Source: Cylindrospermopsis raciborskii Cr2010 (GTDB taxonomy: Bacteria; Cyanobacteriota; Cyanobacteriia; Cyanobacteriales; Nostocaceae). Taken from it: a stretch of DNA of 32,000 nt. Below are positions 3,632-28,345 of the stretch, piece by piece. A program made the translations under genes and the position numbers. Positions within the stretch are counted from its first letter, which is position 1; each line of letters opens with the position of its first letter. The notes under the pieces were generated by a model that was not told the origin of the DNA, made no database searches, and worked only from the letters and a program-made list of their open reading frames with translations. The stretch lies in NCBI RefSeq assembly GCF_003367075.2, contig NZ_CP065936.1, positions 720,001-752,000 on the forward strand. Reading direction: 5' to 3'.

Positions 3632-3687
3632 TTTGATGCCCTACTCTGATGTTTTTATCAGTCTAGCATCTTTGGTAGTTTGTTTTA

Positions 3688-5112: not shown

Positions 5113-5117
5113 TTTTT

Positions 5118-7194: not shown

Positions 7195-7390
7195 TTCTCA
7201 CCTCAAACTTCTAGTTGTTCTAGTCCTAAAAACTTCTGCTAATTTTTTTACCATTATCTGTTATAAAACTAATACAGGAATAAACCTACAAATTAACGGA
7301 ACTGAAAAATCATCTCCCAAAATTTGTTTATTTGGTCTATGCTACGATTATATAAAAAATCTGGCTAAGATCAAGATTAATGTCTAATCT

Positions 7391-8383: not shown

Positions 8384-8387
8384 GTTG

Positions 8388-9539: not shown

Positions 9540-9570
9540 GTGTTTTGTATATTTGATAAAGAACCAGAAA

Positions 9571-11400: not shown

Positions 11401-11445
11401 AGGAATTATCAATAGTAATAGAATTAATCACAATCAAGAGAAAAA

Positions 11446-12390: not shown

Positions 12391-12465
12391 TTTTTGTTGC
12401 CCTTGTTAGCTGTTGTTAATTATGTGAACTTTCATGGGTTATTAGCAACCCTGGGCTAGGTTTGT

Positions 12466-13110: not shown

Positions 13111-13228
13111 TGTCGTGTTTTTCCTCTCTCTATATTTTCTATAATAGAATAAGATGGTCAGTTGATTTTTGAACTCATGAATTCTTTATTTATTCTTGAC
13201 TAACTCTTGATTAATTCCTTAAATATAA

Positions 13229-13320
13229 GGAGGCACAATTATTTGTAGGATGGGTTAGCGGTAGGGTAACCCATGGGTGCGTTGATCTTATATTTAATTC
13301 CACTCATCCACTTATAGAAC
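13229..13320 (-). repeat. Dispersed intergenic repeat, copy B (inverted relative to copy A, no nested insert)
   Basis: The reverse complement aligns to 482-598 minus 519-547. It has the same ATGGGTTA-N9-TAACCCAT hairpin. Confidence 0.8.
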
Positions 13321-13350
13321 AACAGAAAGTTCCCCGTTTCCTCAGAATAA

Positions 13351-15597: not shown

Positions 15598-15670
15598 GAG
15601 ACTATAGACTAAAAATTCGAATCATTGACGAAAGTATTAAAATTTGGGGGTGCTATACCCCTTCATTCCA

Positions 15671-16762
15671 TCAGTGATGTATACCGGAGTTTTTCATGAC
15701 AATCTCCTCTATCTTTTGAAAAAACACTGATTCTGAGAAGTTGTTAACAGCGTGATTGCGAATGCTTTGATAATTCCAAGCTATTTCCTTGGCCCGAAAT
15801 AATCCTGTCTGTAGAGAGTCAGCTGATTGTCTGTTAAAAAACACTCCAGTTTTTCCAGGTATTTGAGTGTCTAAAACACCCCCTGCACCATAAGCAATCA
15901 CTGGAGTTCCACTGGCATTCGCTTCTACTGGCACTAATCCATAGTCTTCCAATGCTGCAACAATAATGGACTTAGCTCTAGAAAATAGGTCCTTACGCTT
16001 AACGTCGCTCACATGACCTAAAAATTGAATATTATCTAGTGCTTTGGATTTTAACCTTTGTAGTTCTGGTCCGTCACCTGATATTAATAAAGGCCAACCT
16101 AACCAGTTAAAAGCCTCGACTATGATATCAAAACGTTTATAACTTATCATCCTAGCAGATGCCAAGTAGTAGTCATCTTTTATTTCAGAAAAAACAAAAT
16201 TATTGGTATCAATTGGATAATTGACTACCATTGCTTCCTTGCCATATATTTGTTGTATACGTTTGGCAACAACGCTGGAATTGGCAATGTATAAATCTGG
16301 TTCCTGGGAGTATTTCAGATCCACATTTCTCATCATAGCAAATATTTTTTCTATTACTGGAGCAAAGTAACGATAATCTCCATACTCCCGTAAATAAGTT
16401 TGTGTATCCCATAAAAATCTAGTTACATTGTGACAGAAGCAAATGTGTTGAGCTTCCTTTTTTTTACGAACCGCTTTGGCAAAGCTCGTACTGCTACTAA
16501 TAATTAAATCATAGTCTTGTAAATCCAGGGAACGGAAAGCTGGAAAGTATAACGGGGCTATAAGTCGAAAATATTTCTTAGCCCCAGGAATGCTTTGTAA
16601 AAAAGTAGTTTTAACTATCCGATCGCCTAAGTCAATAGTTTTTTGGGCATCATATACAGATGTAAAAATATCCGCTTCGGGGTAGTATTTGCAAAGCAAT
16701 TCAAATACTCGCTCTGCTCCACCGCGCTGGGTTAAATAGTCATGGACTAGAGCAATTTTCAT
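15671..16762 (-). CDS. Glycosyltransferase family 4
   Basis: It has MKIALVHDYLTQRGGAERV at the N-terminus and ALEDYGLVPVEANASGTPVIAYGAGG (E-x7-E region). Confidence 0.85.
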   Translation of the reverse strand: MKIALVHDYLTQRGGAERVFELLCKYYPEADIFTSVYDAQKTIDLGDRIVKTTFLQSIPGAKKYFRLIAPLYFPAFRSLDLQDYDLIISSSTSFAKAVRKKKEAQHICFCHNVTRFLWDTQTYLREYGDYRYFAPVIEKIFAMMRNVDLKYSQEPDLYIANSSVVAKRIQQIYGKEAMVVNYPIDTNNFVFSEIKDDYYLASARMISYKRFDIIVEAFNWLGWPLLISGDGPELQRLKSKALDNIQFLGHVSDVKRKDLFSRAKSIIVAALEDYGLVPVEANASGTPVIAYGAGGVLDTQIPGKTGVFFNRQSADSLQTGLFRAKEIAWNYQSIRNHAVNNFSESVFFQKIEEIVMKNSGIHH

Positions 16763-16823
16763 TGTTTGAATAGGGGGGAGGGGGAATAGGGAGTATTGGG
16801 TCTCCCTATGACTGCTGGAAACT

Positions 16824-18137
16824 CTATCTAGCGATCGCTAAGGTTTTAACTGGGGAAAAATAGGCTGTTTGTTCAGCACGCAATCTATCACAAAGTCTAC
16901 CTGTAGGCAATTCGACATCGTTATAAGTGAGGACTTGATCTCGAGGAATATCTCGTATTAAACGACATCCTTGTGCTAGTCCCATGGGTAGTAAATTTTC
17001 CTGTTGCACAATGGAGGAATTTTCACATTGTCCATAGGTCATATAATAGCCAATACCATCAATTATTTCCCCTGCTTTTAAATCAATCTTGGCTGTGGCC
17101 ACCACATCAACTATAGGACCTGCTATGGGGGTTAAAACTGCATCATGTAATAACACTGCACGAGCTACAGAAATAGGAACTTCAAAATGACATAAGTGAT
17201 AGGGTGTATAGAAACTATAAAGAGGACCCTCGCCCAATTTATAGAGGTTCAAATAATGGCGTTGTTTGGGATCTTCGTGAGTAGCAAAAACAAATACTCC
17301 TGGACTGGGTTTTGCACCTACCACATAGTCTACAATTCCACCCAGTTCCCTAAGCTGATCTAGATCATACATTTTGGTCATTTCATCTACATGACCTGTA
17401 TATTCATATCCCAACATACCCCGCTTTGCTACCTTCATCCCCGTACCATTGGCTACAATTGCTTGCTCAAAGGAAATTTTTGTACCGTCAGCAAAACTTG
17501 TCACCATAGCTGGATTTTGTCCCCAACGTTGAGCAAAACCAGCTTGAGTGGTTGGATTGCGGTAGGGATCTTGTAATCCCTTAATATTTCCACATAATAG
17601 GGGGGTTAAACCAATGCTTTTAACAAAGCGATATAAATTCATTTCTACCCCTGGTTGATCCCCATCGCAAGCTGTGAAAACTACTCCAGCTCTATCAGCA
17701 TGAATTTTTAAAATCGGTCCCACTGTTCCATCTAGTTCCGCATTCATTAATATCACATGCTTTTGATGGGCGATCGCTCTGGTTACCAAATGAGCTGCAT
17801 ATTCTATGGTTCCAGTGACTTCAATAATTGCATCTATACCGTCTGCTTCACATAGCAACATGGCATCTTCGGTGATTGCATATCCATTTTGGGCGATGGA
17901 ATCTTCCAAATCTCCTAAATTATCCACAGTGCGGAAATTTTCGATTCCTGCTTCCAAATATGCTCGTTCTGCTGTTTGAATATGACGGTTAGCAATAGCT
18001 ACCAATTCCATTCCTGGAACAGAATTAATAATTTGATTAGCTATACCTCTCCCCATAAAACCAGCACCAATCATGGCAACTTTTACTGGTTTACCTAATT
18101 CAGCACGTGCTTGTAATGCTTGATCAACTATTATCAT
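16824..18137 (-). CDS. NAD(P)-dependent oxidoreductase, homoserine-dehydrogenase-like Rossmann domain with a C-terminal SAF-like domain
   Basis: It has the Rossmann motif VKVAMIGAGFMGRG. The overall length and layout resemble the predicted dehydrogenase-plus-SAF family. The ATG at 18137 is preceded by GGGAG; the track start at 18143 is TTG. Confidence 0.7.
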   Translation of the reverse strand: MIIVDQALQARAELGKPVKVAMIGAGFMGRGIANQIINSVPGMELVAIANRHIQTAERAYLEAGIENFRTVDNLGDLEDSIAQNGYAITEDAMLLCEADGIDAIIEVTGTIEYAAHLVTRAIAHQKHVILMNAELDGTVGPILKIHADRAGVVFTACDGDQPGVEMNLYRFVKSIGLTPLLCGNIKGLQDPYRNPTTQAGFAQRWGQNPAMVTSFADGTKISFEQAIVANGTGMKVAKRGMLGYEYTGHVDEMTKMYDLDQLRELGGIVDYVVGAKPSPGVFVFATHEDPKQRHYLNLYKLGEGPLYSFYTPYHLCHFEVPISVARAVLLHDAVLTPIAGPIVDVVATAKIDLKAGEIIDGIGYYMTYGQCENSSIVQQENLLPMGLAQGCRLIRDIPRDQVLTYNDVELPTGRLCDRLRAEQTAYFSPVKTLAIAR

Positions 18138-18197
18138 TTTCAACTCCCGGGAAACTCCGAATAATTTTTATACAAACTCTCAAAAAAGGTATGGGTA

Positions 18198-18743
18198 CTA
18201 GACACCTATTAACACAGATTCCAATAAAGGCCAACTAAGATCTTTCTGAGAAATTTCAGTCACATTCAAAGGCCAAACAATGTCTAAAATGGGATCATCA
18301 TAACGCAGACCTCGTTCATAACCAGGGGTGTAAAATTCACCAACTTGGTAAACAACTTCCGCGCCATCAGTTAGAGCTTGATACCCATGGGCAAACATTT
18401 CCGGTACATATAAAGCACGACGATTTGTTGCTGTTAGTTCGACGCCAATATATGATAGGTAGGTAGGAGATTCCGGACGCATATCCACAATCACATCATA
18501 AATTGCACCTTGAGTACAGCGAATTAATTTGGTTTCTGTTGCTGGTGTAATTTGGTAGTGCATTCCTCGCAGGGTGCCTTTTTGATGATTAAAAGATAAA
18601 TTACATTGGGCAACTGTTGGCTTTAAACCATGTTCAGCAAATTCTTGGGCGCAGAAAGTTCTGGCAAAAAAACCACGATGATCTGGTTTGTCTTCTAATT
18701 CGATAATGAAAGCACCAGCTAGACTTGTTTGGGTAAAAATCAT
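18198..18743 (-). CDS. NDP-4-dehydro-6-deoxyhexose 3,5-epimerase (RfbC/cupin family)
   Basis: It has HRGFFARTF, RGMHYQ, KLIRCTQGAIYDVIVDMR and FAHGYQAL, which are typical RfbC blocks. The ATG at 18743 gives a canonical 181-aa protein; the track GTG at 18812 adds an unsupported 23 aa. Confidence 0.85.
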   Translation of the reverse strand: MIFTQTSLAGAFIIELEDKPDHRGFFARTFCAQEFAEHGLKPTVAQCNLSFNHQKGTLRGMHYQITPATETKLIRCTQGAIYDVIVDMRPESPTYLSYIGVELTATNRRALYVPEMFAHGYQALTDGAEVVYQVGEFYTPGYERGLRYDDPILDIVWPLNVTEISQKDLSWPLLESVLIGV

Positions 18744-18825
18744 ATTTTTGAAAACTCTCGGTGAATTTGGATAAGCGAAAATGAAAACTTGATAGGGATG
18801 CTCTAACAACACACCCTAGAAAAAT

Positions 18826-19683
18826 TTACCGGGCTTTATTTGCAATTTCAGTCTTAAATTGCCCAGGGGGTTTGGTGAAGGTATGATCATGGTATTGAGT
18901 GCAAAGTTCCGGGCGTTTAGGAGTGTGAGAAGTGTAAACAAAAAATGCTGTAGAACGCTCTTCACTTCTAACTGTTCCGTGATGTAAAACATTTCTAGGA
19001 TCAACAAAAATTACAGTTCCTGCTTTTCCTGGACAAGATTTCCAGAATTTTTTAGGAATAACATTCATCATTTCTCGGTCATCAATTCCCAAAAAACCCG
19101 ACTTCCACAATCTATAATCGACCCGATAATAATTACACCATTCTCCAATATTACTGGGTAAAGGTATATATTCAAAAGGTCCATGTTCTTCCCCCACATC
19201 GTGTAAATAGACGATGATTTTAATCATCCGTCGATCTTCCGCATCCTTGTGCCACAGCAGAGTTTGTAGTTGCTGCTCATTTGGAAAATCCTTCCGCACA
19301 TGAACACCATGAAAAGCTATAGGTAACTCTATATAACTTTCAATGATATTCCTTAACCTAGATTCAATTCCCCAGGTAAAAAATTCCGGTAGATCTGTAA
19401 CCGTGTAAATTTGTGGTAAGCTATATCCCGACTCCACATTTCTGGGAGCTGATATCATCCCTGCATAACCCGTAGCACTTACCCACATTTGTGTGGTTGA
19501 TGGCATTCCTAAATCTGTGAGAGAAGTAATATAAACACCTTGCTGCTTTAAGGTTTCAGCAATTAATTTATCTTTTGGGGATAATACAGGTAAATGCTTT
19601 TTATATTTAGCCACAGATACCCGATAATTAAAATCCTCAGTAAAGGCGTTGAGTTGATCTTGCCAAGTATTAATCATCATCAT
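18826..19683 (-). CDS. Putative Fe(II)/2-oxoglutarate dioxygenase, PhyH-like
   Basis: It has LWHKDAED (HxD), IKIIVYLHDVGEEHGPFEYIP, and KAGTVIFVDPRNVLHHGTVRSEERS (distal His plus Arg). Order and spacing follow phytanoyl-CoA-dioxygenase-family enzymes. Confidence 0.55.
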   Translation of the reverse strand: MMMINTWQDQLNAFTEDFNYRVSVAKYKKHLPVLSPKDKLIAETLKQQGVYITSLTDLGMPSTTQMWVSATGYAGMISAPRNVESGYSLPQIYTVTDLPEFFTWGIESRLRNIIESYIELPIAFHGVHVRKDFPNEQQLQTLLWHKDAEDRRMIKIIVYLHDVGEEHGPFEYIPLPSNIGEWCNYYRVDYRLWKSGFLGIDDREMMNVIPKKFWKSCPGKAGTVIFVDPRNVLHHGTVRSEERSTAFFVYTSHTPKRPELCTQYHDHTFTKPPGQFKTEIANKAR

Positions 19684-19713
19684 TTAAACTAATAATTCAA
19701 CCCAGTAATTAAC

Positions 19714-20727
19714 TCACGAATCTTTATTGCGACGAAGAGAAGAAGTAGATATTTGCTGATTACAATCAGCAATTTTCAGTTCAGGAGCGGCCATAACTTC
19801 TACTGCGGAAACCGTAACTACAGCAAAAAAGGGAAGTATGGTTTGAATAGCAGAAATTGGCCATCTTCTTAAAGCACCTAGGAAAACTTTTGGATTAACT
19901 CCTCGCCAGTTCTGAATCATCATTCTGGCATAAAACTGTTTAGAATATCCATTTTCATGGAGCTTAGAAATCACCTCTGGTATGTGTTTATATTGCATTA
20001 ATAGTGCGGATTTAGGTTCCTTTTGCCAATAACTGACACCTACAATACATTCTAAAAAGTTTTCTTTGGTGACAATTACCTTTCCATGAGCTGCACAATA
20101 ACCCGCAAAATAGGCTAAAGAAATCCAGTTATTAATGGCATCCGGCCAAATTTGTAGAGCCTGTTTAACCAGATCAGCCCTATAAATTGAAGCTGTCAGA
20201 AATATTACTGCGCCCACACTTTTAGCAAGACAATGTTCAAAGATTGCCTTACCATTTCCCGCACCATCTTCCACATCAATATCAAACCAACGATTGCCAG
20301 AAATAGTGGGTGGATGAACTGCTTCCCCAGTAATTTTATTTCTTCCTGAAAAATTCAGAAACATTAAAGATAAGTCCTGGTGTTTTTGCAATTTATCTAT
20401 TACGTAACCAACAGTTCTATCTTGAATGGGATCATCATCACCAATTGTCCATACATATTTGGTAGTGGCGGAATTTAGACAGTAAATTATATTCCTCATC
20501 ACACCCAAATTGCTACTGTTTCTGTTAGATATAAAAGTTACAGAGCTGAGAATTTTCTGCCATTTTTTGATAACTTGCGGTGTATAATCACTGGAACAAT
20601 TGTCAGATACTAAGATTTCACAATCTTGTTCATAACCTTTAATAGCATGAGATAACCACTCCAATTGTTGATCCAGCAAATTTGCTCGATTATAGGTGGG
20701 AATGGCAATAGTCAGTAATTTACTCAT
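19714..20727 (-). CDS. Glycosyltransferase family 2
   Basis: It has LTIAIPTYNRANLL...ILVSDNCSSD and a DxD region WTIGDDDPIQ. Confidence 0.85.
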   Translation of the reverse strand: MSKLLTIAIPTYNRANLLDQQLEWLSHAIKGYEQDCEILVSDNCSSDYTPQVIKKWQKILSSVTFISNRNSSNLGVMRNIIYCLNSATTKYVWTIGDDDPIQDRTVGYVIDKLQKHQDLSLMFLNFSGRNKITGEAVHPPTISGNRWFDIDVEDGAGNGKAIFEHCLAKSVGAVIFLTASIYRADLVKQALQIWPDAINNWISLAYFAGYCAAHGKVIVTKENFLECIVGVSYWQKEPKSALLMQYKHIPEVISKLHENGYSKQFYARMMIQNWRGVNPKVFLGALRRWPISAIQTILPFFAVVTVSAVEVMAAPELKIADCNQQISTSSLRRNKDS

Positions 20728-20860
20728 GTAAAATAATTTCCCAAGTATGTTAATTAAACCAGAATTATTAGATCCCAGCAGTGATTTTGATGAAGATTTC
20801 CATAAGATTACTGCTTGGGACTTTTTGAAATATTAAAAAATTAATTCAAAAAACTAATTC

Positions 20861-21886
20861 CTAGCTATGCCAAAAAAAATTCTGATCGAGTTGTTGAGTA
20901 CGGATCAAATACTCCAGCTGCTTTAATCTGGTAAATCCTCTAAAAAGGAATGTATCCTCAGTCATGTCAATTTGCTGGAATAAATTCAATAACTGTTGGG
21001 CACCACGCTCCGCATTCCACTCACATTTGAATCCTGGTAATATTGTGTTGATCTTCTCGAAGGATACTCGATAACTACGATTATCCGCACCATTATTACC
21101 AAAGGTTAATTTACAATCTGGGAAGGTTGCTGCAATGATTTGGGCAATTTCTCGCACGCGATAATTATTTTGTGTATCTCCTACATTAAAAACCTGATTG
21201 TGAATAATATCCCTGGGTGCTTCCAAGACACAGACAATGGCTTTACAAATGTCCAAAGCATGAACTAAAGGTCGCCAAGGAGTACCATCACTAGTCATTT
21301 TAATTTCCTTGGTAGTCCAAGCTAACCCAGCTAAATTGTTTAAAACAATATCAAATCTCATGCGGGGGGAAGCTCCAAATGCTGTTGCATTGCGCATGAA
21401 GGTAGGGGAAAAATCATCATCAGCTAATAACTTAATATCCCTTTCCACCAAGGTTTTGCACTCAGCATAAGCTGTTTGAGGATTCACTGGTGATTCTTCT
21501 GTTACATCCCCATCAGTGGCAATTCCATAAACACTGCAAGAAGACATATAAACAAACCGACGCACTCCCATGGTTTTAGCCAAATTGGCCAATCGCACGG
21601 AACCTAAATGATTGATATCATAGGTAATATGGGGTGCCAATTGTCCTGTGGGATCATTAGAAAGTTCTGCTTTGTGAACTATAGCATCTACTCCCTCTAG
21701 GTCTTCTGGATTAATATTACGAATGTCTTTGTTGAGAGTTTTGACTGTTATTTCTGTACCGTTATATAACCAGCCAACTTTATAAAAACCCGTGTCTACT
21801 CCAATTACCTTATGACCTTTAGCAATTAATAAGGGAGGGAGCAATGAGCCTAAATATCCTTCTGTACCAGTGACTAATATTTTCAT
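20861..21886 (-). CDS. Extended-SDR NAD-dependent sugar epimerase/dehydratase
   Basis: It has MKILVTGTEGYLGS (GxxGxxG), SSCSVYG and YAECK (S...YxxxK catalytic set). Confidence 0.85.
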   Translation of the reverse strand: MKILVTGTEGYLGSLLPPLLIAKGHKVIGVDTGFYKVGWLYNGTEITVKTLNKDIRNINPEDLEGVDAIVHKAELSNDPTGQLAPHITYDINHLGSVRLANLAKTMGVRRFVYMSSCSVYGIATDGDVTEESPVNPQTAYAECKTLVERDIKLLADDDFSPTFMRNATAFGASPRMRFDIVLNNLAGLAWTTKEIKMTSDGTPWRPLVHALDICKAIVCVLEAPRDIIHNQVFNVGDTQNNYRVREIAQIIAATFPDCKLTFGNNGADNRSYRVSFEKINTILPGFKCEWNAERGAQQLLNLFQQIDMTEDTFLFRGFTRLKQLEYLIRTQQLDQNFFWHS

Positions 21887-21932: not shown

Positions 21933-23141
21933 TTAAAAACACCTGATTAAATTTGCTGGTTCTGGTAATTGATTCACAATGGCCTTACCAATCTCTAAAG
22001 AAGATGTAGCTGCAGGTGATGGTGCATTGCAAACGTGAATAGAGTTTTTACCAGGAACGATTAAAAAGTCCTCTACCAGAGAACCATTATTCATTAATGC
22101 TTGAGCTCTAACCCCCGCATGGGTGGGTACTAAATCTTTCGCCTCCACTTCTGGAATCAGTTTTTGCAAACTTCTGACAAAAGCTGCTTTACTCCAGGAA
22201 CGTATCATTTCTTTGATTCCTTCATCAGCATGTTTGGCTGCTAGTTTCCAAAAACCAGGATAGGTAATGACTTCAGTTAGATCTCTTAGATCAAAATCGG
22301 TTTTTTTGTAACCTTCTCTTTTAAAACTCAAAACCGCATTTGGACCAGCGTGAACTGTGCCATCAATCATCCTGGTAAAATGTACACCCAAAAATGGGAA
22401 ATCTGGGTTAGGAACTGGATAAATAAGCGTTTTGACTAAAGAACGTTTTTCCGGTGTTAGTTCATAGTATTCTCCCCGAAAGGGAACGATTTTAGCTTGG
22501 GGATTTACCTGACCCAATTCCGCCAGGCGATCGCTATGTAGTCCACCACAGTTAATTACAAATCTAGTTTCAAAACTGCCTTTGGTAGTTTCTATTATCT
22601 GATTTTCGCCGCTTGGGTGTAGTTTTAAAACCCGGGTGTTAAGGCGTAAATCGCCTCCTTGATTTTGAATAATCTCCGCGTACTTGAGGCAAACTTGTTT
22701 GTAGTTGACAATCCCAGTAGAAGAGACTCGAATTGCTGCCAAGCAACTAAGATGAGGTTCAATTTCCCTTGCTTCTTGAGGACTAATTCTCTTCACGGGA
22801 ATACCATTATCTAAACCTCGCTGATAGAGGTTTTCTAATCTTGGTATTTCCTCGGGTTCTGTGGCGACAATAACCTTACCACAAATATCATGATCTATAT
22901 TATGTTCTCGACAAAATTCCACCATTGATCGACTGCCATCACGGCAGAATTTTGCTTTGAAACTACCGGGTTTGTAGTAAATACCAGAATGAATGACACC
23001 ACTATTGTTGCCAGTTTGATGAAATGCCCATTCCGCTTCTTTTTCTAGGACTAAAATCTTGGTCTGACCATAGCGTTTACCTAAAGCCATGGCCGTAGCT
23101 AGTCCTACTATTCCACCACCAATAATGGCAAAGTCATACAT
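21933..23141 (-). CDS. lhgO: FAD-dependent oxidase of the L-2-hydroxyglutarate oxidase (LhgO) family
   Basis: It has MYDFAIIGGGIVGLATAMAL...LEKE...HQTGNNSGVIHSGIYYKPGSFKAKFC. From memory, this closely parallels the N-terminus of E. coli LhgO/YgaF. Confidence 0.7.
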   Translation of the reverse strand: MYDFAIIGGGIVGLATAMALGKRYGQTKILVLEKEAEWAFHQTGNNSGVIHSGIYYKPGSFKAKFCRDGSRSMVEFCREHNIDHDICGKVIVATEPEEIPRLENLYQRGLDNGIPVKRISPQEAREIEPHLSCLAAIRVSSTGIVNYKQVCLKYAEIIQNQGGDLRLNTRVLKLHPSGENQIIETTKGSFETRFVINCGGLHSDRLAELGQVNPQAKIVPFRGEYYELTPEKRSLVKTLIYPVPNPDFPFLGVHFTRMIDGTVHAGPNAVLSFKREGYKKTDFDLRDLTEVITYPGFWKLAAKHADEGIKEMIRSWSKAAFVRSLQKLIPEVEAKDLVPTHAGVRAQALMNNGSLVEDFLIVPGKNSIHVCNAPSPAATSSLEIGKAIVNQLPEPANLIRCF

Positions 23142-23169
23142 GATTATTTTTCCCTTAAATCACCATCAA

Positions 23170-23946
23170 TTATGCCCACACCTTCCAAGGAGCTTGATTA
23201 TTTTTCCACAAATCTTCCAGGTAGTTTTTATCTCTTAAAGTATCCATTGGCTGCCAAAATCCCTGATGTTTAAAAGCTGACAGTTGTTCCATATCCGCTA
23301 ATTTTTCTAGTGGTTCCTTTTCCCAAACCGTACTTTCATCAGCAATAAAATTAATTACCTCTGGTTCTAGGACAAAATAACCACCATTAATCCAAGCACC
23401 ATCACCCTCTGGCTTTTCTTTAAAACTGGTAATTTTAGTTTGTTCTTGTCCTAGGGAAATTGCCCCAAATCTTCCTGCTGGTTGGACAGCACTAAGGGTG
23501 GCTAAGGTTTTTTGGCTTTGGTGAAAATTAATTAGTTCCGTAATATTAATATTGCTGACACCATCTCCATAGGTAAAACAGAAAGTTTCGTTACCAATAT
23601 GTTCTCTCACTTTCTTTAGTCTACCACCTGTCATGGTATTATCGCCCGTATTTACCAAAGTAACCCGCCATGGTTCTGCATATCCGGAATGGATACTCAT
23701 TTGATTAAATCTCATATCAAAAGTTACGTCTGACATGTGGAGGAAGTAGTTGGCAAAATACTCCTTAATAATGTAACCCTTGTATCCACAACAAATGATA
23801 AAATCATTAATACCATGAGCTGAATATATTTTCATAATATGCCAAAGAATTGGCTTGCCACCCACTTCTACCATTGGCTTAGGTCTAATACTAGTTTCTT
23901 CACTCAGACGCGTTCCTAAACCACCAGCTAGAATTACTGCTTTCAT
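23170..23946 (-). CDS. rfbF: Glucose-1-phosphate cytidylyltransferase
   Basis: It has MKAVILAGGLGTRLSEETSIRPKPMVEVGGKPILWHIMKIYSAHGINDFIICCGYKG and a C-terminal WQPMDTLRDK...W. This is characteristic of RfbF rather than RmlA. Confidence 0.9.
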   Translation of the reverse strand: MKAVILAGGLGTRLSEETSIRPKPMVEVGGKPILWHIMKIYSAHGINDFIICCGYKGYIIKEYFANYFLHMSDVTFDMRFNQMSIHSGYAEPWRVTLVNTGDNTMTGGRLKKVREHIGNETFCFTYGDGVSNINITELINFHQSQKTLATLSAVQPAGRFGAISLGQEQTKITSFKEKPEGDGAWINGGYFVLEPEVINFIADESTVWEKEPLEKLADMEQLSAFKHQGFWQPMDTLRDKNYLEDLWKNNQAPWKVWA

Positions 23947-24133
23947 GCAAATACCTCTGATTTATTTGATTTAACTATTTGCCAGCACGACAAGTTATGG
24001 GAATTAAATAGATGGGATTTTGCTTGGTTTCCCTTTCTGATGGAACATAATAGTAATCTAGCGAAAAAAAACGGGACTGTTTATAAAGAGTCAGTAAATT
24101 TAGGGTAAGCCTTGAAATAAGATAATTGTCAAC

Positions 24134-24173
24134 AAAAAAACAAGGAGACAGCTACTAGATATCTATCTCCTTG
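24134..24173 (-). terminator. Rho-independent terminator after the kinase gene
   Basis: The minus-strand RNA reads CAAGGAGA-N17-UCUCCUUG followed by UUUUUUU, 31 nt after the stop at 24205. The loop is long, though it contains its own palindrome TAGATATCTA. Confidence 0.5.
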
Positions 24174-24204
24174 GTGAGGAAAATATTATTTTTCTTACTA
24201 CATT

Positions 24205-26397
24205 TCAGGGATTTACATTATAAATAATTGATGAGTTCTGTAAAAAATAGTCGCACTTTTCTTCAGCAATAACACAAATATTACTGATAGCTTGCTGGTA
24301 GTTGTTCACATCCTTCTTATTCAGATATAATTGAGCAGATTTTTCTAAATCTTCCAGAGCTTGTTGCTGATTATTCCTGGCTGTCCTTTCTCCATATTGG
24401 GCTAATTCATAGTAAATCATTCCTCTTTTGAGGAACACCTCTGCCATTTCCGGATTAATATTTAATGCCTGGTCAAAATCTGCGATCGCCTGTTTATATA
24501 TTTGAGCATAATTACTGCTATATTGGGCAAATTGGTAACGAGCTAGACCGCGCTGAAAGTAGGCTTCTGCTTTAAAACGATTGAGTTTAATTGCCTGTGT
24601 AAAGTCCCCAATAGATCTTTCGTATTCCTCTTGTGAGTTATTACTATATCTGGCTATTTGTGACCGAACAATACCTCTTCTAACATAGGCTTCATCATCT
24701 TGTTGGTTAATGTTAATAGCATTATTGAAACTGTCTATAGCTTTTTTATATTCATAATCCGGATCATTGCTATAGTCAGCCAGTTTAAGATAAGCATTAC
24801 CACGATTGATAAATGCCTTAACTTCCTGGGGATTAATTTTCAAAGCCAGATTATAATCTGTCAATGCTCCTTCATAATCATTTAAATTATAGCGGGCATT
24901 GCCCCTATGCATGTATAGTTTAGAAAAATTAGTATTTTGTTTGATACCTTGGCTAAAGTCCTCAATTGCTTGTTGATAGTCCTGTTGTTGATAAGCCTGA
25001 TTACCACGTTGATAGTAATCATTAAAACTTAAACTTAATGGGGAATGAACATTTTCGCTTCTACTAGACAATAAACTTTGTTGAGTGTAAGGATTAGGAG
25101 AGAGAAAAGGACGGGTAAATTTAACCATAATATCCAAATAACCCAATACACCCAAACCTAAAAGTCCAAACATAAGAGTATAAAACTTAGACCTACTTGA
25201 TGTTTGTACAGGTTGATAACCAGGCGAAGTTGATCTCAAAGAGAATTGGGTATAGGTAGCCAAAACGGGAACAGCTGGTTTACGAACACGGGGCTGATAT
25301 CTAGGGCGCTTACGAGATTTGCGTCGGGGTTGGAGATGTTCCCGAGCGGAGATTGCCTGCAAAGATGGAAAGGGGTCTCTCCCCCCCAACTTCATAGTGC
25401 GTTCACACCAGGGACATTTATCTAGATGAGGATGATAAGCATGCTGAGGATTAACAGCACAAGAAATCAAACTTGCTTCTGCAGTAGATAAAACCGATAG
25501 CCAAGTTTGGGCACTGGGGCGCAAATAGGGAGAATGGTGACCATCTTCAAAACAGCTGATAAACAGATCTCGTAAATCAGGATGAAGAGTTTGCCAACTG
25601 GGAGTAATGGGAGTAGGTAAATAGGGGACTTTTTGTTTTTGGCTATAGGTAAAATGGCCAGCTAGAATGCGGGACTCATAAGTGGGGGGATCCCCTAAAC
25701 CTTGAAAAACCCCAGAAAAAGGGTGAGTCCCTTCCATCAAAAGCTGGAATATCAACACCCCTAACCCGAACAAATCATGATAGGTTTCCCGATTATAGTC
25801 AGCAAAGGTTTTATTCTGAAGTTCTGGGGGAGTATATTCTGGTTTACCCACCAAACATCGATAAACCGTATTTTGAGACAAATCTGGGACTTGAAAGGAG
25901 TCCGTATCCACTAAACTAACTAAAGCTGTGTTACTGACTAGAATATTTGATTCATTGACATCGCCAATACAGTAATTACTTGCATGTAACGCGGCAAAAG
26001 CTGCGGCCAAATTGCGAGCAGTGCGCAGTAAATATTGATAATTAAATAGGGGACAGTTTTGACGACGATTGCCAGGATTATAAAAGTCCATAATAGGACG
26101 CATGTTCCGAATCCGTGGCATTAAAAAGCCAATAATAGTATCACTACCCTCCGCAGCAGTTAATAACTCCTGTGGCCATGCTATAGAAATATGACCAAAA
26201 CTGGCCGCAGGATTTGCTGGGGGGTTGGCGATCATGGCCCGCAGTTTCTGAATATGACTAGAAGTTGGGTGATGATAAATTTTGGCGACTAAATTTTCAT
26301 CGCTTGGAACCGTATAGACACAAGCTTCACCCCCGCGTCCCAAATTTTCCTGTAAATCCAGAACCTCTTGATTGGAAAAAGAACGTAGTACCTGCAT
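24205..26397 (-). CDS. Atypical Ser/Thr protein kinase (TerY-P triad type) with Cys/His cluster, TM helix and C-terminal TPR array
   Basis: It has Gly-loop GRGGEACVY, Lys VAKIY, catalytic loop IGDVNESNILV, DFG-equivalent DTDSF and APE-equivalent TPPE. A TM helix FYTLMFGLLGLGVLGYLDIMV (nt 25123-25185) follows. Then come 2 canonical 34-aa and 4 expanded 42-aa TPR-like units. Confidence 0.8.
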   Translation of the reverse strand: MQVLRSFSNQEVLDLQENLGRGGEACVYTVPSDENLVAKIYHHPTSSHIQKLRAMIANPPANPAASFGHISIAWPQELLTAAEGSDTIIGFLMPRIRNMRPIMDFYNPGNRRQNCPLFNYQYLLRTARNLAAAFAALHASNYCIGDVNESNILVSNTALVSLVDTDSFQVPDLSQNTVYRCLVGKPEYTPPELQNKTFADYNRETYHDLFGLGVLIFQLLMEGTHPFSGVFQGLGDPPTYESRILAGHFTYSQKQKVPYLPTPITPSWQTLHPDLRDLFISCFEDGHHSPYLRPSAQTWLSVLSTAEASLISCAVNPQHAYHPHLDKCPWCERTMKLGGRDPFPSLQAISAREHLQPRRKSRKRPRYQPRVRKPAVPVLATYTQFSLRSTSPGYQPVQTSSRSKFYTLMFGLLGLGVLGYLDIMVKFTRPFLSPNPYTQQSLLSSRSENVHSPLSLSFNDYYQRGNQAYQQQDYQQAIEDFSQGIKQNTNFSKLYMHRGNARYNLNDYEGALTDYNLALKINPQEVKAFINRGNAYLKLADYSNDPDYEYKKAIDSFNNAININQQDDEAYVRRGIVRSQIARYSNNSQEEYERSIGDFTQAIKLNRFKAEAYFQRGLARYQFAQYSSNYAQIYKQAIADFDQALNINPEMAEVFLKRGMIYYELAQYGERTARNNQQQALEDLEKSAQLYLNKKDVNNYQQAISNICVIAEEKCDYFLQNSSIIYNVNP

Positions 26398-26439
26398 AAT
26401 TCAATGGTGATTAATGGACTTTATAAAACAAACCTTTTA

Positions 26440-27219
26440 TCAGTTACTAAATGCTGCTAGTACCAAAGTTAAATCATCATCCGTACGTTCAATAATTTTT
26501 CTAGAAGATAAAAAACTTGTTAACTGTTCTTTTGCTAGTCTATGGTCTTCAACCTTGGCAACAAAATCAAATAAGGGTAAAAAGAAGGGTTGATGTGGTT
26601 CTTGAACTAGCATATTTAGAGCTAACATTTGTAGACCATCGGTAAGCACTCCAATATTAACTATGTTATGACGCAAGATTTGTAGCTGAGTTGTAGTCAC
26701 CGCTTCAGATGAAGTCAAAAATATGGTTTCGTTGACATATTCGCCCCTGTGGGGAATGGTCAGAGCTTGCAATTTACCCGTGCTATCCCTAGTCACAGCT
26801 AAACCATCTCCTATTTGTGCTACCGCTGCAAGTTTTGGGGTAGCAACTACAATAATTAAGGTAGTTGCTAGGTCAGATAGCTCATATTTGCCCACCTGAG
26901 CTTCGTTTTCCAAAGCGGTTTTGGCATTGATCATGGCCTCATGCAGCAACTCTCTCAATAGGATATCATCAGTGATGACGGTGGCAATATCTTTCCGCTG
27001 GGATATATACTCTATAGCTGTTTGGGTGGCTATCACCGCTCCTACTTTCCCTAGATTGGCACAACCTGCTCCATCTGCAACTGCTATTAATAATACATTA
27101 TTGGGCAGTATATGCCAATAGTGAGCATCTTGACACAACTGGTCATTTTTGATATGGCTGGTTCCACATACGGATGCGGCTGCTACTCGCCATTGGGCAA
27201 CCTGTTTCGATGAGTTCAT
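26440..27219 (-). CDS. PP2C-family Ser/Thr phosphatase
   Basis: It has ASVCGTSHIKNDQLCQDA, LIAVADGAGCA and IGVLTDGL, which are blocks of the bacterial PP2C_2-type. Confidence 0.8.
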   Translation of the reverse strand: MNSSKQVAQWRVAAASVCGTSHIKNDQLCQDAHYWHILPNNVLLIAVADGAGCANLGKVGAVIATQTAIEYISQRKDIATVITDDILLRELLHEAMINAKTALENEAQVGKYELSDLATTLIIVVATPKLAAVAQIGDGLAVTRDSTGKLQALTIPHRGEYVNETIFLTSSEAVTTTQLQILRHNIVNIGVLTDGLQMLALNMLVQEPHQPFFLPLFDFVAKVEDHRLAKEQLTSFLSSRKIIERTDDDLTLVLAAFSN

Positions 27220-27264
27220 AATCGCATAAATGGTAGCTGATGGCTGGCTATTGTCAATATATAT

Positions 27265-27939
27265 TTAGATAGAACCCCAACCGATGGGCGGTAGTGCTAC
27301 TTGCTCTTCTAACTGAGAATGGGATACAGCGGACATACTGGCCGAAAGCCACACAAACATTTCTACAAAGTTGAGACCTTTGAGTTTTAGGGGAGTCCGC
27401 ACAGCTATTTGATGGAGACGATCCATATTGGCATTTTCTACTCCTACAGTGAAAAAAGCTACTTTTTTATTGGACTCATCTCCTCGTAGACGCTGGGTTG
27501 CTTGTTCTATAACCTCGTCTATCTCACCCTGGGGTTCACCATCTGTAATCATAAATACCCATGGACGATAGTAAGCAATGCCATTGGCACGATACTGGGA
27601 TTTGCGCTCCTGAATTATTTCTAGGGATTTATTAATTCCCGCTCCCATAGTTGTTAATCCCTGAGCTGTTAGAATAGGAGGAGTAAATTGATCTACGGTC
27701 ACAAAATCTTGTACCACGTTTACATGACTATCAAAAGTAACAATTGCCACTTCTACTCTTCTAGCAGCTAGGGTGTTCTTAACCAGTTCATCCTTAAAAC
27801 TCAGTAGACCCTGATTTAGTGCCTCAATTCTATCACCCTGCATGGATCCGGAAGTATCTAGCAGGAGTACACAGGGACACCGAGGTTCTGGATTTTCTGC
27901 GAACTCAACCACTTCATCTAGGGTAAAGGTATTCAGCAT
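27265..27939 (-). CDS. von Willebrand factor A domain protein (TerY-like)
   Basis: It has the MIDAS motif CVLLLDTSGSMQG, later TTMGAGI, and VFMITDGEP. The ATG at 27939 is preferred; the track start at 27963 is TTG. Confidence 0.85.
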   Translation of the reverse strand: MLNTFTLDEVVEFAENPEPRCPCVLLLDTSGSMQGDRIEALNQGLLSFKDELVKNTLAARRVEVAIVTFDSHVNVVQDFVTVDQFTPPILTAQGLTTMGAGINKSLEIIQERKSQYRANGIAYYRPWVFMITDGEPQGEIDEVIEQATQRLRGDESNKKVAFFTVGVENANMDRLHQIAVRTPLKLKGLNFVEMFVWLSASMSAVSHSQLEEQVALPPIGWGSI

Positions 27940-28345
27940 AATTTCTTGTGTGATGTCGTCCAAGGTTCTGATTTCCTCTTCTCAAATTATATAGTGTCTA
28001 GACTGTTAGGACTGCAATTATTGCATCTGGTGGTAGATAAACAGGATTTTGTCTCCCAATTATTTCCCATTTAATTCTCCAGTTCAGGAAACTTGAGCAT
28101 TACCATACGGTTTGTTAATGGCTAATTAATCTAAAGGTACACAAGACACCCCTAATATATAATATATAATGACCAGCTAGAATTTAAAGATTCTATGTTT
28201 TCTCTTCTCTATATTATCGATTAGTTTGAAAGAAACTACTGTATCAAAAAGACTCCCTCTTGACCCAATATTCTCATAATATGGTCATGGTAGCACAACT
28301 GCTTTGGGGTCTTAAATCACTTATTAATTTACTTAATCACTTACT

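What the first reader, a model, noticed from the sequence alone, without database searches (positions are those of the whole stretch)
24205..27963. TerY-P-type triad (vWA / PP2C / atypical kinase) sits as a self-contained module between hetP and the HEP island
Three co-directional genes are separated by only 45 and 42 nt. They encode a vWA protein with an intact MIDAS motif (DTSGS), a PP2C phosphatase and a divergent Ser/Thr kinase. This is the TerY-phosphorylation triad defined computationally by Anantharaman, Iyer and Aravind. Gao et al. (2020) later listed a TerY-P system among experimentally supported anti-phage systems. Its mechanism and its substrate are unknown. Here the module has its own divergent promoter region (27964-28345) and its own terminator (24134-24173). 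It is wedged between two heterocyst-development loci, so it is either an accessory defence insertion or a recruited signalling module. The second option is plausible because HEP deposition in Anabaena is known to depend on Ser/Thr kinase and two-component signalling (HepS, HepK/DevR, HepN). The kinase also carries a membrane anchor and a repeat array (see next finding), which looks like a sensor.
Basis: partly seen in the sequence, partly recalled or inferred. Interest (0 to 1): 0.75.

Follow-up and report, generated by a model that had tools for sequence, protein, structure and literature searches.

The report
Kinase switch module heading heterocyst-envelope island
Three adjacent genes (a vWA protein, a PP2C phosphatase and an odd membrane kinase) are a true TerY-P/YegL-PphC-YegI-type triad, but in heterocyst-forming cyanobacteria the triad is a fixed, vertically inherited, development-co-regulated front end of the envelope-polysaccharide gene island, not a mobile phage-defence insertion.

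Summary
The window (Cylindrospermopsis raciborskii) carries three co-directional genes with gaps of 45 and 42 nt. They encode a vWA protein with an intact MIDAS motif, a PP2C_2 phosphatase and an atypical Ser/Thr kinase. A hairpin plus U7 terminator follows the kinase gene.

All three proteins are homologous to E. coli YegL/PphC/YegI (54/37/36% identity). They are more distantly related to the ter-plasmid TerY/PP2C/kinase set. The family call therefore holds.

The "accessory defence insertion" reading is not supported:
- Starting from rfbF, the triad lies directly upstream in 20 of 20 Nostocales-type loci with a triad hit. It is absent next to rfbF in Richelia, Calothrix NIES-3974 and non-heterocystous cyanobacteria.
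- Triad divergence tracks HEP-gene divergence (Mantel r=0.91).
- By synteny the PCC 7120 orthologues are alr2822-2824. These fall together with the whole HEP island in sigC and sigE mutants 8 h after nitrogen step-down.

This clade's kinase has a zinc knuckle, one membrane helix and about seven TPR repeats that must lie outside the cytoplasm. Close relatives elsewhere sit on mobile or defence-like elements.

Best reading: a domesticated TerY-P triad that acts as an envelope-linked receptor-kinase switch. Its function is untested. PADLOC was uninformative because its positive controls also failed.

The parts
27265..27963 (-). vWA (TerY/YegL-type) protein gene, 232 aa, TTG start; orthologue of PCC 7120 alr2822
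   Evidence: ORF. Pfam VWA 3e-13. 54% identity to E. coli YegL over the full length. 28% identity, E 8e-19, to ter-plasmid TerY. 143 of 234 alignment columns are invariant among 19 Nostocales orthologues.
27844..27858 (-). MIDAS DxSxS motif (D36-T-S38-G-S40)
   Evidence: Invariant in all alignments, together with T104 and D141.
27961..27995 (-). Conserved translation and promoter-proximal block: box ACTATATAATTTGAG (TATAAT at 27986-27991), GAGG Shine-Dalgarno at 27975-27978, TTG start at 27961-27963
   Evidence: TTG sits at the aligned start in 18 of 19 loci. The box AACTATATACTtTGAG and the GGAAA element are conserved from Calothrix to Fischerella. Promoter function is inferred, not shown.
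27964..28345 (.). Divergent intergenic region between the vWA gene and the ABC ATPase gene; site of the lineage-specific loss of a PatA-like response-regulator gene
   Evidence: The PatA_N+REC gene is present at this position in 18 other loci and absent here.
26440..27219 (-). PP2C_2 phosphatase gene, 259 aa; orthologue of alr2823 and homologue of E. coli PphC
   Evidence: Pfam PP2C_2 1e-54. 37% identity to PphC over the full length. PphC dephosphorylates YegI in vitro (10.1101/303594).
25468..26397 (-). Atypical Ser/Thr kinase domain (residues 1-310): K39, catalytic loop GDVNESN (25945-25965), DTD in place of DFG (25900-25908)
   Evidence: 36% identity to YegI residues 10-327. These motifs are invariant in 21 to 36 orthologues. 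YegI, with VGDxxQxS and DSD, is an active Mn2+-preferring kinase (10.1101/819920).
25405..25461 (-). Cys/His zinc knuckle C313-x5-H319-x4-H324-x3-C328-P-W-C331, followed by invariant LGGRDPFPS
   Evidence: Invariant in 21 orthologues. CPxC is kept at about residue 325-330 in 148 of the 149 nearest family representatives and in YegI and the Mesorhizobium kinase. It matches the zinc ribbon described for TerY-P kinases.
25105..25191 (-). Single transmembrane helix (residues 403-431) after a basic, disordered linker
   Evidence: One hydropathy peak is found in all 21 orthologues. There are 2-7 K/R (4-7 in all but the window and Aphanizomenon) in the 15 residues upstream against 1-3 downstream. The AlphaFold2 model has a helix at 403-431.
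24268..25026 (-). TPR solenoid of about seven helix pairs (residues 458-710), predicted to be extracytoplasmic, with an invariant Cys pair C708/C715 (24253-24276)
   Evidence: Pfam TPR families. AlphaFold2 pLDDT of about 90. Foldseek matches TPR superhelices. The Cys pair is invariant in 21 to 36 sequences. The topology is inferred.
24134..24173 (-). Intrinsic-terminator-like hairpin (24141-24173) plus U7 (24134-24140), 31 nt after the kinase stop codon
   Evidence: Comparable strong hairpin plus U tracts (dG <= -12) follow the kinase gene in 8 of 21 loci, with non-homologous sequences.
23170..23946 (-). rfbF (glucose-1-phosphate cytidylyltransferase), first gene of the HEP island (alr2825 orthologue); the conserved downstream partner of the triad
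   Evidence: Synteny.

Best explanation
The three genes are a TerY-P-type triad of the YegL/PphC/YegI subfamily. [quoted passage not shown]

Proposed working, step by step:
1. The triad is switched on together with the HEP genes in differentiating cells. This is shown for the PCC 7120 orthologues alr2822-2824, which depend on SigC and SigE at 8 h.
2. The kinase is a single-pass receptor kinase. Its ATP-using domain and zinc knuckle are cytoplasmic. Its TPR solenoid therefore lies on the far side of the membrane, in the periplasm. This is inferred from topology, charge bias and an invariant Cys pair.
3. The TPR domain engages a periplasmic or envelope ligand. Candidates are nascent HEP, its export apparatus or a cell-wall cue. 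Binding changes kinase autophosphorylation in the DTD-S activation segment. This is inferred by analogy with YegI, whose DSD serine is autophosphorylated.
4. The PP2C resets the kinase. This is shown only for E. coli PphC acting on YegI.
5. The cytoplasmic vWA/MIDAS protein is the most conserved component. It acts as the output or adaptor: a metal-dependent binder or substrate whose state tunes HEP synthesis or export. This step is inferred and its target is unknown.

The module is a separate transcription unit. It has its own conserved TTG start and promoter-proximal box, and in this genome its own terminator.
For: Family:
- Identity to YegL/PphC/YegI is 54/37/36%.
- All three proteins are homologous to the ter-plasmid TerY/PP2C/kinase set, in the same order.
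- The TerY signature FxWxSxSxxxxS and the MIDAS residues are invariant.
- The zinc knuckle is present.

Fixed linkage to the HEP island:
- A scan seeded with RfbF, not with the triad, found the triad directly upstream, on the same strand and in the same order, in the 20 Nostocales-type loci L002-L021 (two are cut inside or before the vWA gene). These include Aphanizomenon, Nostoc, Fischerella, Scytonema, Calothrix, Rivularia and Tolypothrix.
- The scan found no triad next to rfbF in the non-heterocystous cyanobacteria (L025-L034) or in other phyla.
- The same arrangement occurs in PCC 7120-type chromosomes and in L087.

Vertical co-inheritance and constraint:
- Mantel r=0.91 between triad distances and RfbF+DAO distances; 0 of 5000 permutations reached it.
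- The vWA protein is as constrained as the sugar-nucleotide enzymes (mean distance 0.13 against 0.11-0.14).

Co-regulation:
- The gene order in L084 matches the annotation order alr2817 to alr2831. Hence alr2822 = vWA, alr2823 = PP2C and alr2824 = kinase.
- All three are down (log2 -1.4 to -2.2) in both sigC and sigE disruptants at 8 h without nitrogen, together with every HEP-island gene (PMC4390870).
- They also fall with the island in a cse mutant (PMC7065334).

Receptor architecture:
- All 21 orthologues have one transmembrane helix, a basic upstream flank and an invariant C708/C715 pair.
- The TPR solenoid has pLDDT of about 90.
- Of the 149 nearest family representatives, 148 keep the kinase-plus-CPxC core. 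Most have a membrane helix followed by unrelated C-terminal domains. This is a modular receptor-kinase family.

Domestication:
- The closest non-HEP relatives are tight triads on mobile or conflict-type contexts. In Floridaenema the triad lies on a relaxase/NikA element next to an EAD4-nSTAND NTPase. In L094 it lies next to Crp and PycTM genes.

Biochemical precedent:
- YegI is an active kinase and PphC dephosphorylates it.

HEP precedent:
- HEP formation is already known to be controlled by Ser/Thr phosphorylation through HepS, HenR, Alr3423 and All4160, and its regulation is described as poorly understood (PMC13555669).
Against: - No mutant or phenotype for alr2822-2824 was found in the searchable literature. 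The classic HEP-island definition starts at alr2825, so a role in HEP deposition is untested.
- Richelia intracellularis and Calothrix NIES-3974 have rfbF and its neighbour without an adjacent triad. Linkage is therefore not absolute, and the triad may be dispensable or located elsewhere in those genomes.
- No conserved sigma-HetZ/DIF1 promoter precedes the triad, so its direct regulator is unknown.
- The expression data come from PCC 7120, not from this organism. The locus-tag mapping rests on synteny.
- The extracytoplasmic location of the TPR domain, its ligand and the role of the vWA protein are inferences. The vWA structure model was too poor to use.
- Co-location and co-expression do not prove a functional link.
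Confidence: 0.55

Rival explanations
1. It is an anti-phage TerY-P defence system, as reported by Gao et al. 2020. It happens to sit beside the HEP island and senses infection through the kinase.
For: TerY-P-like modules are reported as stand-alone anti-phage systems (summarised in PMC11090510). The closest non-HEP relatives sit in mobile or conflict contexts. The Mesorhizobium plasmid triad lies next to AbiEii and UvrD genes. The kinase gives weak hits to defence kinases PD-T4-6, mad6 and MkoA.
Against: The triad occupies a fixed position in every Nostocales-type locus sampled and co-diverges with housekeeping-like HEP enzymes. Its sequence constraint is strong. It is induced with the developmental programme and depends on SigC/SigE. 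The tested defence version has an OB-fold tail, whereas this one has a zinc knuckle, a membrane helix and TPR repeats. PADLOC gives no vWA or PP2C hit, although that result is uninformative. The kinase hits are generic kinase-core matches.
Confidence: 0.1
2. It is a general envelope, metal or stress-sensing Ser/Thr switch used by all cell types, as the silent E. coli yegLKI locus may be. Its position next to the HEP island and its co-expression are historical accidents or read-through, with no role in HEP.
For: TerY-P triads are hypothesised to be metal-sensing phospho-switches. The triad has its own terminator and start signals, so it is a separate unit. Two heterocystous lineages keep the HEP genes without an adjacent triad. 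No Fox mutant was found mapping to these genes in the searchable literature. Raphidiopsis strains keep all three genes; that the genus lacks heterocysts is from my own knowledge.
Against: Linkage has persisted across the deepest splits of heterocystous cyanobacteria, although the flanks rearrange: the hetP side is variable, and there is a 7-kb insertion in Aliinostoc. The triad is absent next to rfbF in non-heterocystous cyanobacteria. Co-regulation is at the same magnitude as the island genes in three mutant backgrounds.
Confidence: 0.25
3. It is a decaying or non-functional remnant of a mobile element.
For: One Cylindrospermopsis/Raphidiopsis assembly (L082) has a frameshifted PP2C gene and a 6.6-kb insertion in the kinase gene. 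The kinase lacks canonical HRD and DFG motifs.
Against: The ORFs are intact in all other genomes. Catalytic, MIDAS and zinc residues are invariant. YegI, with the same atypical motifs, is active.
Confidence: 0.03

Closest known systems
E. coli YegL / PphC (YegK) / YegI
   Same: All three proteins are homologous (54/37/36% identity) and in the same gene order. The vWA proteins share the NPEPRCPC extension and the MIDAS motif. The kinases share the atypical motifs (GDxNxxN-type loop, D-S/T-D in place of DFG) and the CPWC zinc knuckle. Both kinases are membrane-bound.
   Different: [quoted passage not shown] The protein here has one membrane helix and an extracytoplasmic TPR solenoid. The E. coli locus is transcriptionally silent and has no known role. 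The cyanobacterial triad is induced during development and fixed next to a polysaccharide island.
TerY-P triad of ter (tellurite-resistance) clusters (Anantharaman, Iyer & Aravind 2012; example: Klebsiella plasmid L090)
   Same: The order is vWA (TerY), PP2C, kinase. The MIDAS residues and the C-terminal FxWxSxSxxxxS signature are shared. All three components are detectably homologous.
   Different: Identity is only 22-28%. The ter versions lack the NPEPRCPC extension, have a 577-aa PP2C and a soluble 499-aa kinase, sit with TerD/TerA and nucleoside-metabolite genes, and are plasmid-borne.
Gao et al. 2020 TerY-P anti-phage system
   Same: The three-component logic is the same.
   Different: The tested kinase carries a C-terminal OB fold. 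The kinase here has a zinc knuckle, a membrane helix and TPR repeats. The context here is chromosomal, fixed and developmental, and no defence phenotype is known.
Known regulators of HEP deposition in Anabaena (HepK/DevR, HepN, HepS, HenR-Alr3423-All4160)
   Same: These are phosphorylation-based controls of heterocyst polysaccharide synthesis that act on or near biosynthetic enzymes.
   Different: They are unrelated protein families encoded away from the island. The triad is encoded inside the island's expression unit and is uncharacterised.
Receptor Ser/Thr kinase plus PP2C pairs such as PknB/PstP, PrkC/PrpC, the PpkA/PppA pathway of type VI secretion, and PknG (kinase with TPR)
   Same: A membrane or scaffolded kinase with a sensor domain is reset by a cognate PP2C. 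Foldseek matches PknB and PknG. The PpkA comparison is from my own knowledge.
   Different: These have a canonical Hanks kinase core with PASTA or vWA ectodomains, and no obligatory cytoplasmic TerY-type vWA partner.

Membership tests
TerY-P triad (TerY-like vWA + PP2C + Ser/Thr kinase; Anantharaman et al. 2012, as summarised in PMC11090510) | TerY-like vWA protein with an intact MIDAS motif | tested here: met
   28% identity, E 8e-19, to ter-plasmid TerY. tblastn hits 2324 plasmid records annotated as TerY-C or VWA. MIDAS D/S/S/T/D and the FxWxSxSxxxxS signature are invariant.
TerY-P triad | Adjacent PP2C-family phosphatase | tested here: met
   Pfam PP2C_2 1e-54. 37% identity to PphC. E 2e-10 to the ter-cluster PP2C.
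TerY-P triad | Adjacent Ser/Thr kinase fused at its C-terminus to a zinc ribbon | tested here: met
   36% identity to YegI and E 4e-10 to the ter-cluster kinase. The element C313..H319..H324..C328PWC331 is invariant. Zinc binding itself has not been shown.
TerY-P triad | Three genes contiguous and co-directional, in the order vWA, PP2C, kinase | tested here: met
   The same order is seen in E. coli, Mesorhizobium, Klebsiella, Floridaenema and metagenomic relatives.
TerY-P triad | Mobility, or association with ter, restriction or conflict systems | tested here: not met
   The triad is fixed next to the HEP island and co-diverges with it. No conflict genes lie nearby. This is a contextual feature, not a sequence-defining one.
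Gao 2020 TerY-P anti-phage system | Match to the defence-system HMMs (PADLOC or DefenseFinder TerY-P) | tested here: inconclusive
   PADLOC v2.0.0 gives no hit for the vWA or PP2C proteins, even at E<=10. E. coli YegL/PphC, the Mesorhizobium triad and the Klebsiella ter-cluster TerY/PP2C also give none. The library therefore cannot discriminate. DefenseFinder was not available.
Gao 2020 TerY-P anti-phage system | Kinase with a C-terminal OB fold | tested here: not met
   No OB domain is found by Pfam or in the AlphaFold2 model. The tail is a zinc knuckle, a disordered linker, a membrane helix and TPR repeats.
Gao 2020 TerY-P anti-phage system | Protection against phage | not testable with these tools
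   This needs cyanophage plaque assays or heterologous expression.
HEP island (heterocyst envelope polysaccharide gene cluster) | Physical contiguity with alr2825-alr2841 orthologues | tested here: met
   The triad lies directly upstream of rfbF in the window and in the 20 Nostocales-type loci L002-L021, with 258-1463 nt between them (6.8 kb in Aliinostoc).
HEP island | Co-induction after nitrogen step-down, with dependence on heterocyst sigma factors | tested here: met
   Literature for PCC 7120 shows alr2822-2824 down with the island in sigC, sigE and cse mutants. The locus-tag mapping is by synteny. This was not tested in Cylindrospermopsis.
HEP island | Requirement for the HEP layer or oxic N2 fixation (Fox/Hep phenotype) | not testable with these tools
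   No mutant was found in the searchable literature. Huang et al. 2005 is not held.

The most novel reading that the evidence does not exclude
A module otherwise found on mobile or conflict elements (a TerY-P triad) has been captured by the ancestor of heterocyst-forming cyanobacteria. It has been turned into a developmental checkpoint. Its periplasmic TPR receptor kinase would read the state of the nascent envelope polysaccharide or its export machine. Through PP2C-reversible phosphorylation and the MIDAS/vWA partner, it would gate HEP synthesis. If so, this would be the first physiological role and the first tractable readout for any YegL/PphC/YegI-type triad.
Probability: 0.3. Interest if true: 0.8.

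Novelty: new variant of a known kind. Interest (0 to 1): 0.6.

Why it matters
TerY-P/YegLKI triads are very widespread. The kinase core alone matches 3,723 cluster representatives at E<=1e-30. Even so, no cellular function, substrate or stimulus is known for them, and the E. coli copy is silent.

Here one clade is locked to a well-studied developmental programme with easy readouts: Alcian-blue staining, Fox growth and nitrogenase activity under oxygen. It is also available in a genetically tractable model, Anabaena PCC 7120 (alr2822-2824).

This does two things. It offers a direct way to learn what the vWA partner does. It also adds an overlooked island-encoded Ser/Thr switch, plus a conserved neighbouring PatA-like response regulator, to the still poorly understood control of heterocyst envelope formation.

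Finally, it is a clean example of a conflict-system-type module being domesticated for multicellular development.

Tried and rejected
- **PADLOC scan.** No vWA or PP2C hits. I rejected this as evidence either way, because three positive-control triads also fail.
- **Sigma-HetZ/DIF1 promoter** (TCCGGA-N16-17-TGNA, at most 1 mismatch). It is not conserved upstream of the vWA gene or of rfbF. Only Amazonocrinis has a perfect site. I make no claim of direct HetZ control.
- **AlphaFold2 model of the vWA protein.** Mean pLDDT was 54 from a shallow alignment. I did not use it for fold search.
- **Solved structures.** There is none for vWA or PP2C relatives.
- **Foldseek on the kinase model.** It returned only generic TPR and kinase folds.
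- **Direct PCC 7120 identification by cluster look-up.** This failed. It was solved instead through a vWA hit on a 6.41-Mb PCC 7120-type chromosome.
- **Supplement searches for alr2822-24.** Flaherty 2011, the 2026 FOX-prediction paper, the HetZ paper and the A. variabilis array paper held nothing usable. Huang et al. 2005 is not held.
- **Simple terminator scan.** It missed the real hairpin because of its loop-size limit.
- **L082 frameshifts as sequencing errors.** The two 1-nt deletions lie in homopolymers and could be errors. The 6.6-kb insertion with a 325-bp duplication cannot be.

Full report
**1. What is in the window**

The window comes from Cylindrospermopsis (Raphidiopsis) raciborskii. 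The three proteins, HetP and RfbF all have exact matches in that species.

On the minus strand lie three genes:
- a 232-aa vWA protein at 27265-27963;
- a 259-aa PP2C at 26440-27219;
- a 730-aa kinase at 24205-26397.

The gaps between them are 45 and 42 nt.

Pfam gives VWA (3e-13) and PP2C_2 (1e-54). For the kinase it gives only a partial Pkinase match (1.6e-8, residues 118-284), plus several TPR families at about residues 460-700.

The MIDAS DTSGS motif is intact.

The consensus scan missed it only because its loop is longer than 8 nt.

rfbF and further HEP-type sugar genes lie downstream. A MalK-like ABC ATPase and hetP lie upstream.

**2. Family assignment**

The three proteins match E. coli K-12 YegL, PphC (YegK) and YegI:
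- vWA against YegL: 54% identity, E 6e-75;
- PP2C against PphC: 37% identity, E 1e-46;
- kinase against YegI: 36% identity, E 2e-59.

The kinase match ends exactly at a conserved CPWC motif.

The three proteins also match a Mesorhizobium plasmid triad at 56/31/37% identity. More distantly, they match the TerY / PP2C / kinase set at the end of a Klebsiella ter cluster (28/26/22% identity; E 8e-19, 2e-10, 4e-10). Gene order is the same throughout.

An alignment from the ter-plasmid TerY proteins to the cyanobacterial protein keeps the five MIDAS residues. It also keeps a C-terminal FxWxSxSxxxxS signature. An N-terminal NPEPRCPC extension marks the YegL subfamily only.

The CoCoNuT census (PMC11090510) defines TerY-P as three parts: a TerY-like vWA, a PP2C, and a Ser/Thr kinase fused to a C-terminal zinc ribbon. 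The same paper states that the version Gao et al. tested for defence has an OB fold instead.

The kinase here has an invariant element C-x5-H-x4-H-x3-C-P-W-C and no OB fold.

E. coli YegI has the same unusual catalytic loop and D-S-D in place of DFG. It is nevertheless an active, Mn2+-preferring, autophosphorylating kinase, and PphC dephosphorylates it. The window kinase has GDVNESN and D-T-D at the same positions, invariant in all orthologues.

The call "TerY-P-type triad" is therefore supported.

It also returns nothing for YegL/PphC, the Mesorhizobium triad and genuine ter-cluster TerY/PP2C. That test says nothing either way.

**3. Is it an accessory insertion?**

I scanned one genome per species using RfbF, not a triad protein, as the query. 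This avoids conditioning the result on the triad being present. I then searched the flanks of the hits for the triad.

Results:
- In all 20 Nostocales-type loci (L002-L021) the three genes sit immediately upstream of rfbF, on the same strand and in the same order. Every ORF is intact, and the kinase and TPR parts always form one ORF. Two of these loci, L006 and L018, are cut before or within the vWA gene.
- These loci cover Aphanizomenon, eight Nostoc, Aliinostoc, Amazonocrinis, Fischerella, Scytonema, Brasilonema, two Calothrix, Rivularia, Tolypothrix, Iphinoe and two unnamed MAGs.
- Gaps within the triad are 37-165 nt. The gap to rfbF is 258-1463 nt, and 6.8 kb in Aliinostoc.
- The triad is absent next to rfbF in Richelia intracellularis and Calothrix NIES-3974.
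- It is also absent in ten loci (L025-L034) from Gloeocapsopsis, Leptolyngbya-like cyanobacteria, unclassified cyanobacterial MAGs and a Gloeobacteraceae MAG, and in more distant cyanobacterial and non-cyanobacterial loci.

Pairwise divergence of the triad proteins tracks that of RfbF and the neighbouring oxidoreductase (Mantel r=0.91; 0 of 5000 permutations reach it). The vWA protein is as constrained as those enzymes. Among 19 orthologues, 143 of 234 vWA alignment columns are invariant.

This is the pattern of an old, vertically inherited island component, not of a variable defence cargo.

**4. Link to development**

A vWA homologue on a 6.41-Mb PCC 7120-type chromosome gave locus L084. Its gene order is hetC, hetP, two small ORFs, a PatA_N response regulator on the opposite strand, vWA, PP2C, kinase-TPR, then NTP transferase, DAO, epimerase, GT2, a 270-aa ORF, rfbC and an oxidoreductase.

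This matches, gene for gene, the published annotation of alr2817 to alr2831. Hence alr2822 is the vWA gene, alr2823 the PP2C gene and alr2824 the kinase gene.

In the microarrays of Ehira and Miyazaki (PMC4390870), these three "hypothetical proteins" are reduced at 8 h after nitrogen removal:
- in the sigC disruptant by log2 -1.48, -1.58 and -2.24;
- in the sigE disruptant by log2 -1.42, -1.60 and -1.93.

They fall in one block with hetP and every HEP-island gene.

Other papers treat alr2822 or alr2823 through alr2841 as the island when reporting its down-regulation.

I found no paper that identifies these genes as a vWA/PP2C/kinase triad or reports a mutant. A 2026 paper on HEP control lists HepK, HepN, HepS, HenR and Alr3423/All4160, and calls the regulation poorly understood.

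**5. Anatomy specific to this clade**

All 21 orthologues have one hydrophobic helix at about residues 403-431. It follows a basic, variable and disordered linker. There are 2-7 K/R (4-7 in all but the window and Aphanizomenon) in the 15 residues before the helix, against 1-3 after it. A TPR domain follows, with two invariant cysteines, C708 and C715.

AlphaFold2 models the helix and a TPR solenoid of seven helix pairs at pLDDT of about 90. Foldseek finds only generic TPR and kinase folds.

The kinase domain needs cytoplasmic ATP and there is a single membrane span. The TPR domain must therefore be extracytoplasmic. This is an inference.

A search of all proteins with the kinase core finds 3,723 cluster representatives at E<=1e-30. 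The 149 nearest are 49-62% identical to the window's kinase domain. Of these, 148 keep CPxC at about residue 325. Most then have one or more membrane helices followed by unrelated C-terminal regions, and only eight are TPR-like. This is a modular receptor-kinase family.

The closest relative outside the HEP clade with the same layout is in Floridaenema evergladense. There the triad has gaps of 0 and 7 nt. It lies on a relaxase/NikA element next to an EAD4-nSTAND NTPase. Another relative lies next to Crp and PycTM genes. Others have unremarkable neighbours.

The HEP-linked clade therefore looks like a domesticated descendant of a mobile, conflict-type triad.

**6. Expression signals**

The vWA gene starts with TTG in 18 of 19 loci. 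The start is preceded by a GAGG/GGGAAA Shine-Dalgarno element and a conserved box, AACTATATACTtTGAG. In the window this box contains TATAAT at 27986-27991, 23 nt upstream of the start.

This box may be the -10 element of a short-leader promoter, but that has not been shown.

The sigma-HetZ/DIF1 consensus is not conserved here or upstream of rfbF.

Strong hairpin plus U terminators follow the kinase gene in 8 of 21 loci, with unrelated sequences.

The triad is thus probably its own transcription unit, co-regulated with the island rather than read through into it.

**7. How it most likely works**

Shown:
- homology and gene order;
- conservation and co-divergence;
- co-regulation of the PCC 7120 orthologues;
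- activity of the E. coli homologues.

Inferred:
- The TPR ectodomain binds a periplasmic or envelope component.
- This alters autophosphorylation of the kinase.
- The PP2C resets the kinase.
- The cytoplasmic MIDAS/vWA protein is the phospho-dependent output towards HEP synthesis or export.

I put about 0.55 on the core claim: an envelope-linked developmental signalling module rather than a defence system or an unrelated neighbour. I put much less on any particular ligand or target.

Rivals:
- a genuine phage-defence system (0.1);
- a general envelope or metal stress switch with only a historical link to the island (0.25);
- a decaying remnant (0.03).

**8. Verdict**

The family call is right. 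The defence-insertion reading is disfavoured. The recruited-signalling reading is favoured but functionally untested.

It is a new variant of a known kind: a TerY-P/YegLKI triad with a membrane-anchored TPR receptor tail, fixed in a developmental polysaccharide island.

Interest is moderate to high. It gives a tractable handle on a very widespread but functionally blank triad, and it adds an unrecognised component to heterocyst envelope control.

Noticed in passing
window 27964-28345 (compare L084:8024-9397, L002:3524-4891): A 457-aa PatA_N (PATAN/DUF4388) + receiver response regulator is encoded divergently, directly upstream of the vWA gene. By position it is all2821 in PCC 7120. It is present in 18 of 18 heterocystous loci with enough upstream DNA, and in L083, L084, L087 and L088. 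It is missing from this window, where only 382 nt separate the ABC ATPase and vWA genes. The closest relative, L002, has hetP, ABC, PatA-like, then vWA. Cylindrospermopsis forms only terminal heterocysts, like Anabaena patA mutants (my own knowledge), so a link is conceivable but speculative.
   Followed up: partly
L082 (GCA_002321945.1) 9180-20895; corresponds to window 23100-27219: In one Cylindrospermopsis/Raphidiopsis assembly a 6.6-kb block (GT4 glycosyltransferase, PIG-L deacetylase, a 738-aa ORF and others) is inserted inside the TPR-coding part of the kinase gene, with a 325-bp duplication. The PP2C gene is frameshifted in a homopolymer. The ABC and DAO genes are also split. This may be a natural knock-out, or in part assembly error.
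   Followed up: partly
window 27961-27995: The vWA gene uses a TTG start that is conserved in 18 of 19 Nostocales loci. A Shine-Dalgarno element and a conserved TATA(C/A)T-containing box lie just upstream. NCBI annotation instead starts 8 codons downstream at an ATG (224 aa).
   Followed up: yes
L091:8543-14775 (Floridaenema evergladense) and L094:6511-11578: The nearest non-HEP relatives are tightly packed triads in mobile or conflict contexts. One lies on a relaxase/NikA element next to an EAD4-nSTAND NTPase. Another lies next to a Crp-family regulator and a PycTM (Pycsar-type effector) protein.
   Followed up: partly
L023 (Richelia intracellularis) and L024 (Calothrix sp. NIES-3974), upstream of position 10001: These two heterocystous genomes have rfbF and the next HEP gene but no adjacent triad. 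Richelia has an unrelated small vWA ORF and an Mfd-like gene there. Whether the triad is lost or relocated could not be checked.
   Followed up: partly
L006 (Aliinostoc sp. HNIBRCY26) 3135-10001: About 6.8 kb is inserted between the kinase gene and rfbF in this genome. I did not examine its content.
   Followed up: no
window 24205-25026 (kinase residues 526-693): Four of the seven TPR-like repeats are about 42 residues long, not 34. Each has a conserved insert of the type A-x-Y-S-x-x-x-x-x-x-Y-x-x-A-I between the helices.
   Followed up: no
proteins P0380, P0016, P0029, P0009, P0023 (Raphidiopsis sp. BLCC-F218, R. curvata NIES-932): Raphidiopsis strains keep full-length triad genes. BLCC-F218 has all three (vWA, PP2C, kinase) at 99% (vWA) or >=90% (same 90% clusters for PP2C and kinase) identity to the window proteins, together with hetP and rfbF. 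R. curvata NIES-932 has at least the PP2C and kinase genes. The genus is defined by the lack of heterocysts (my own knowledge).
   Followed up: no
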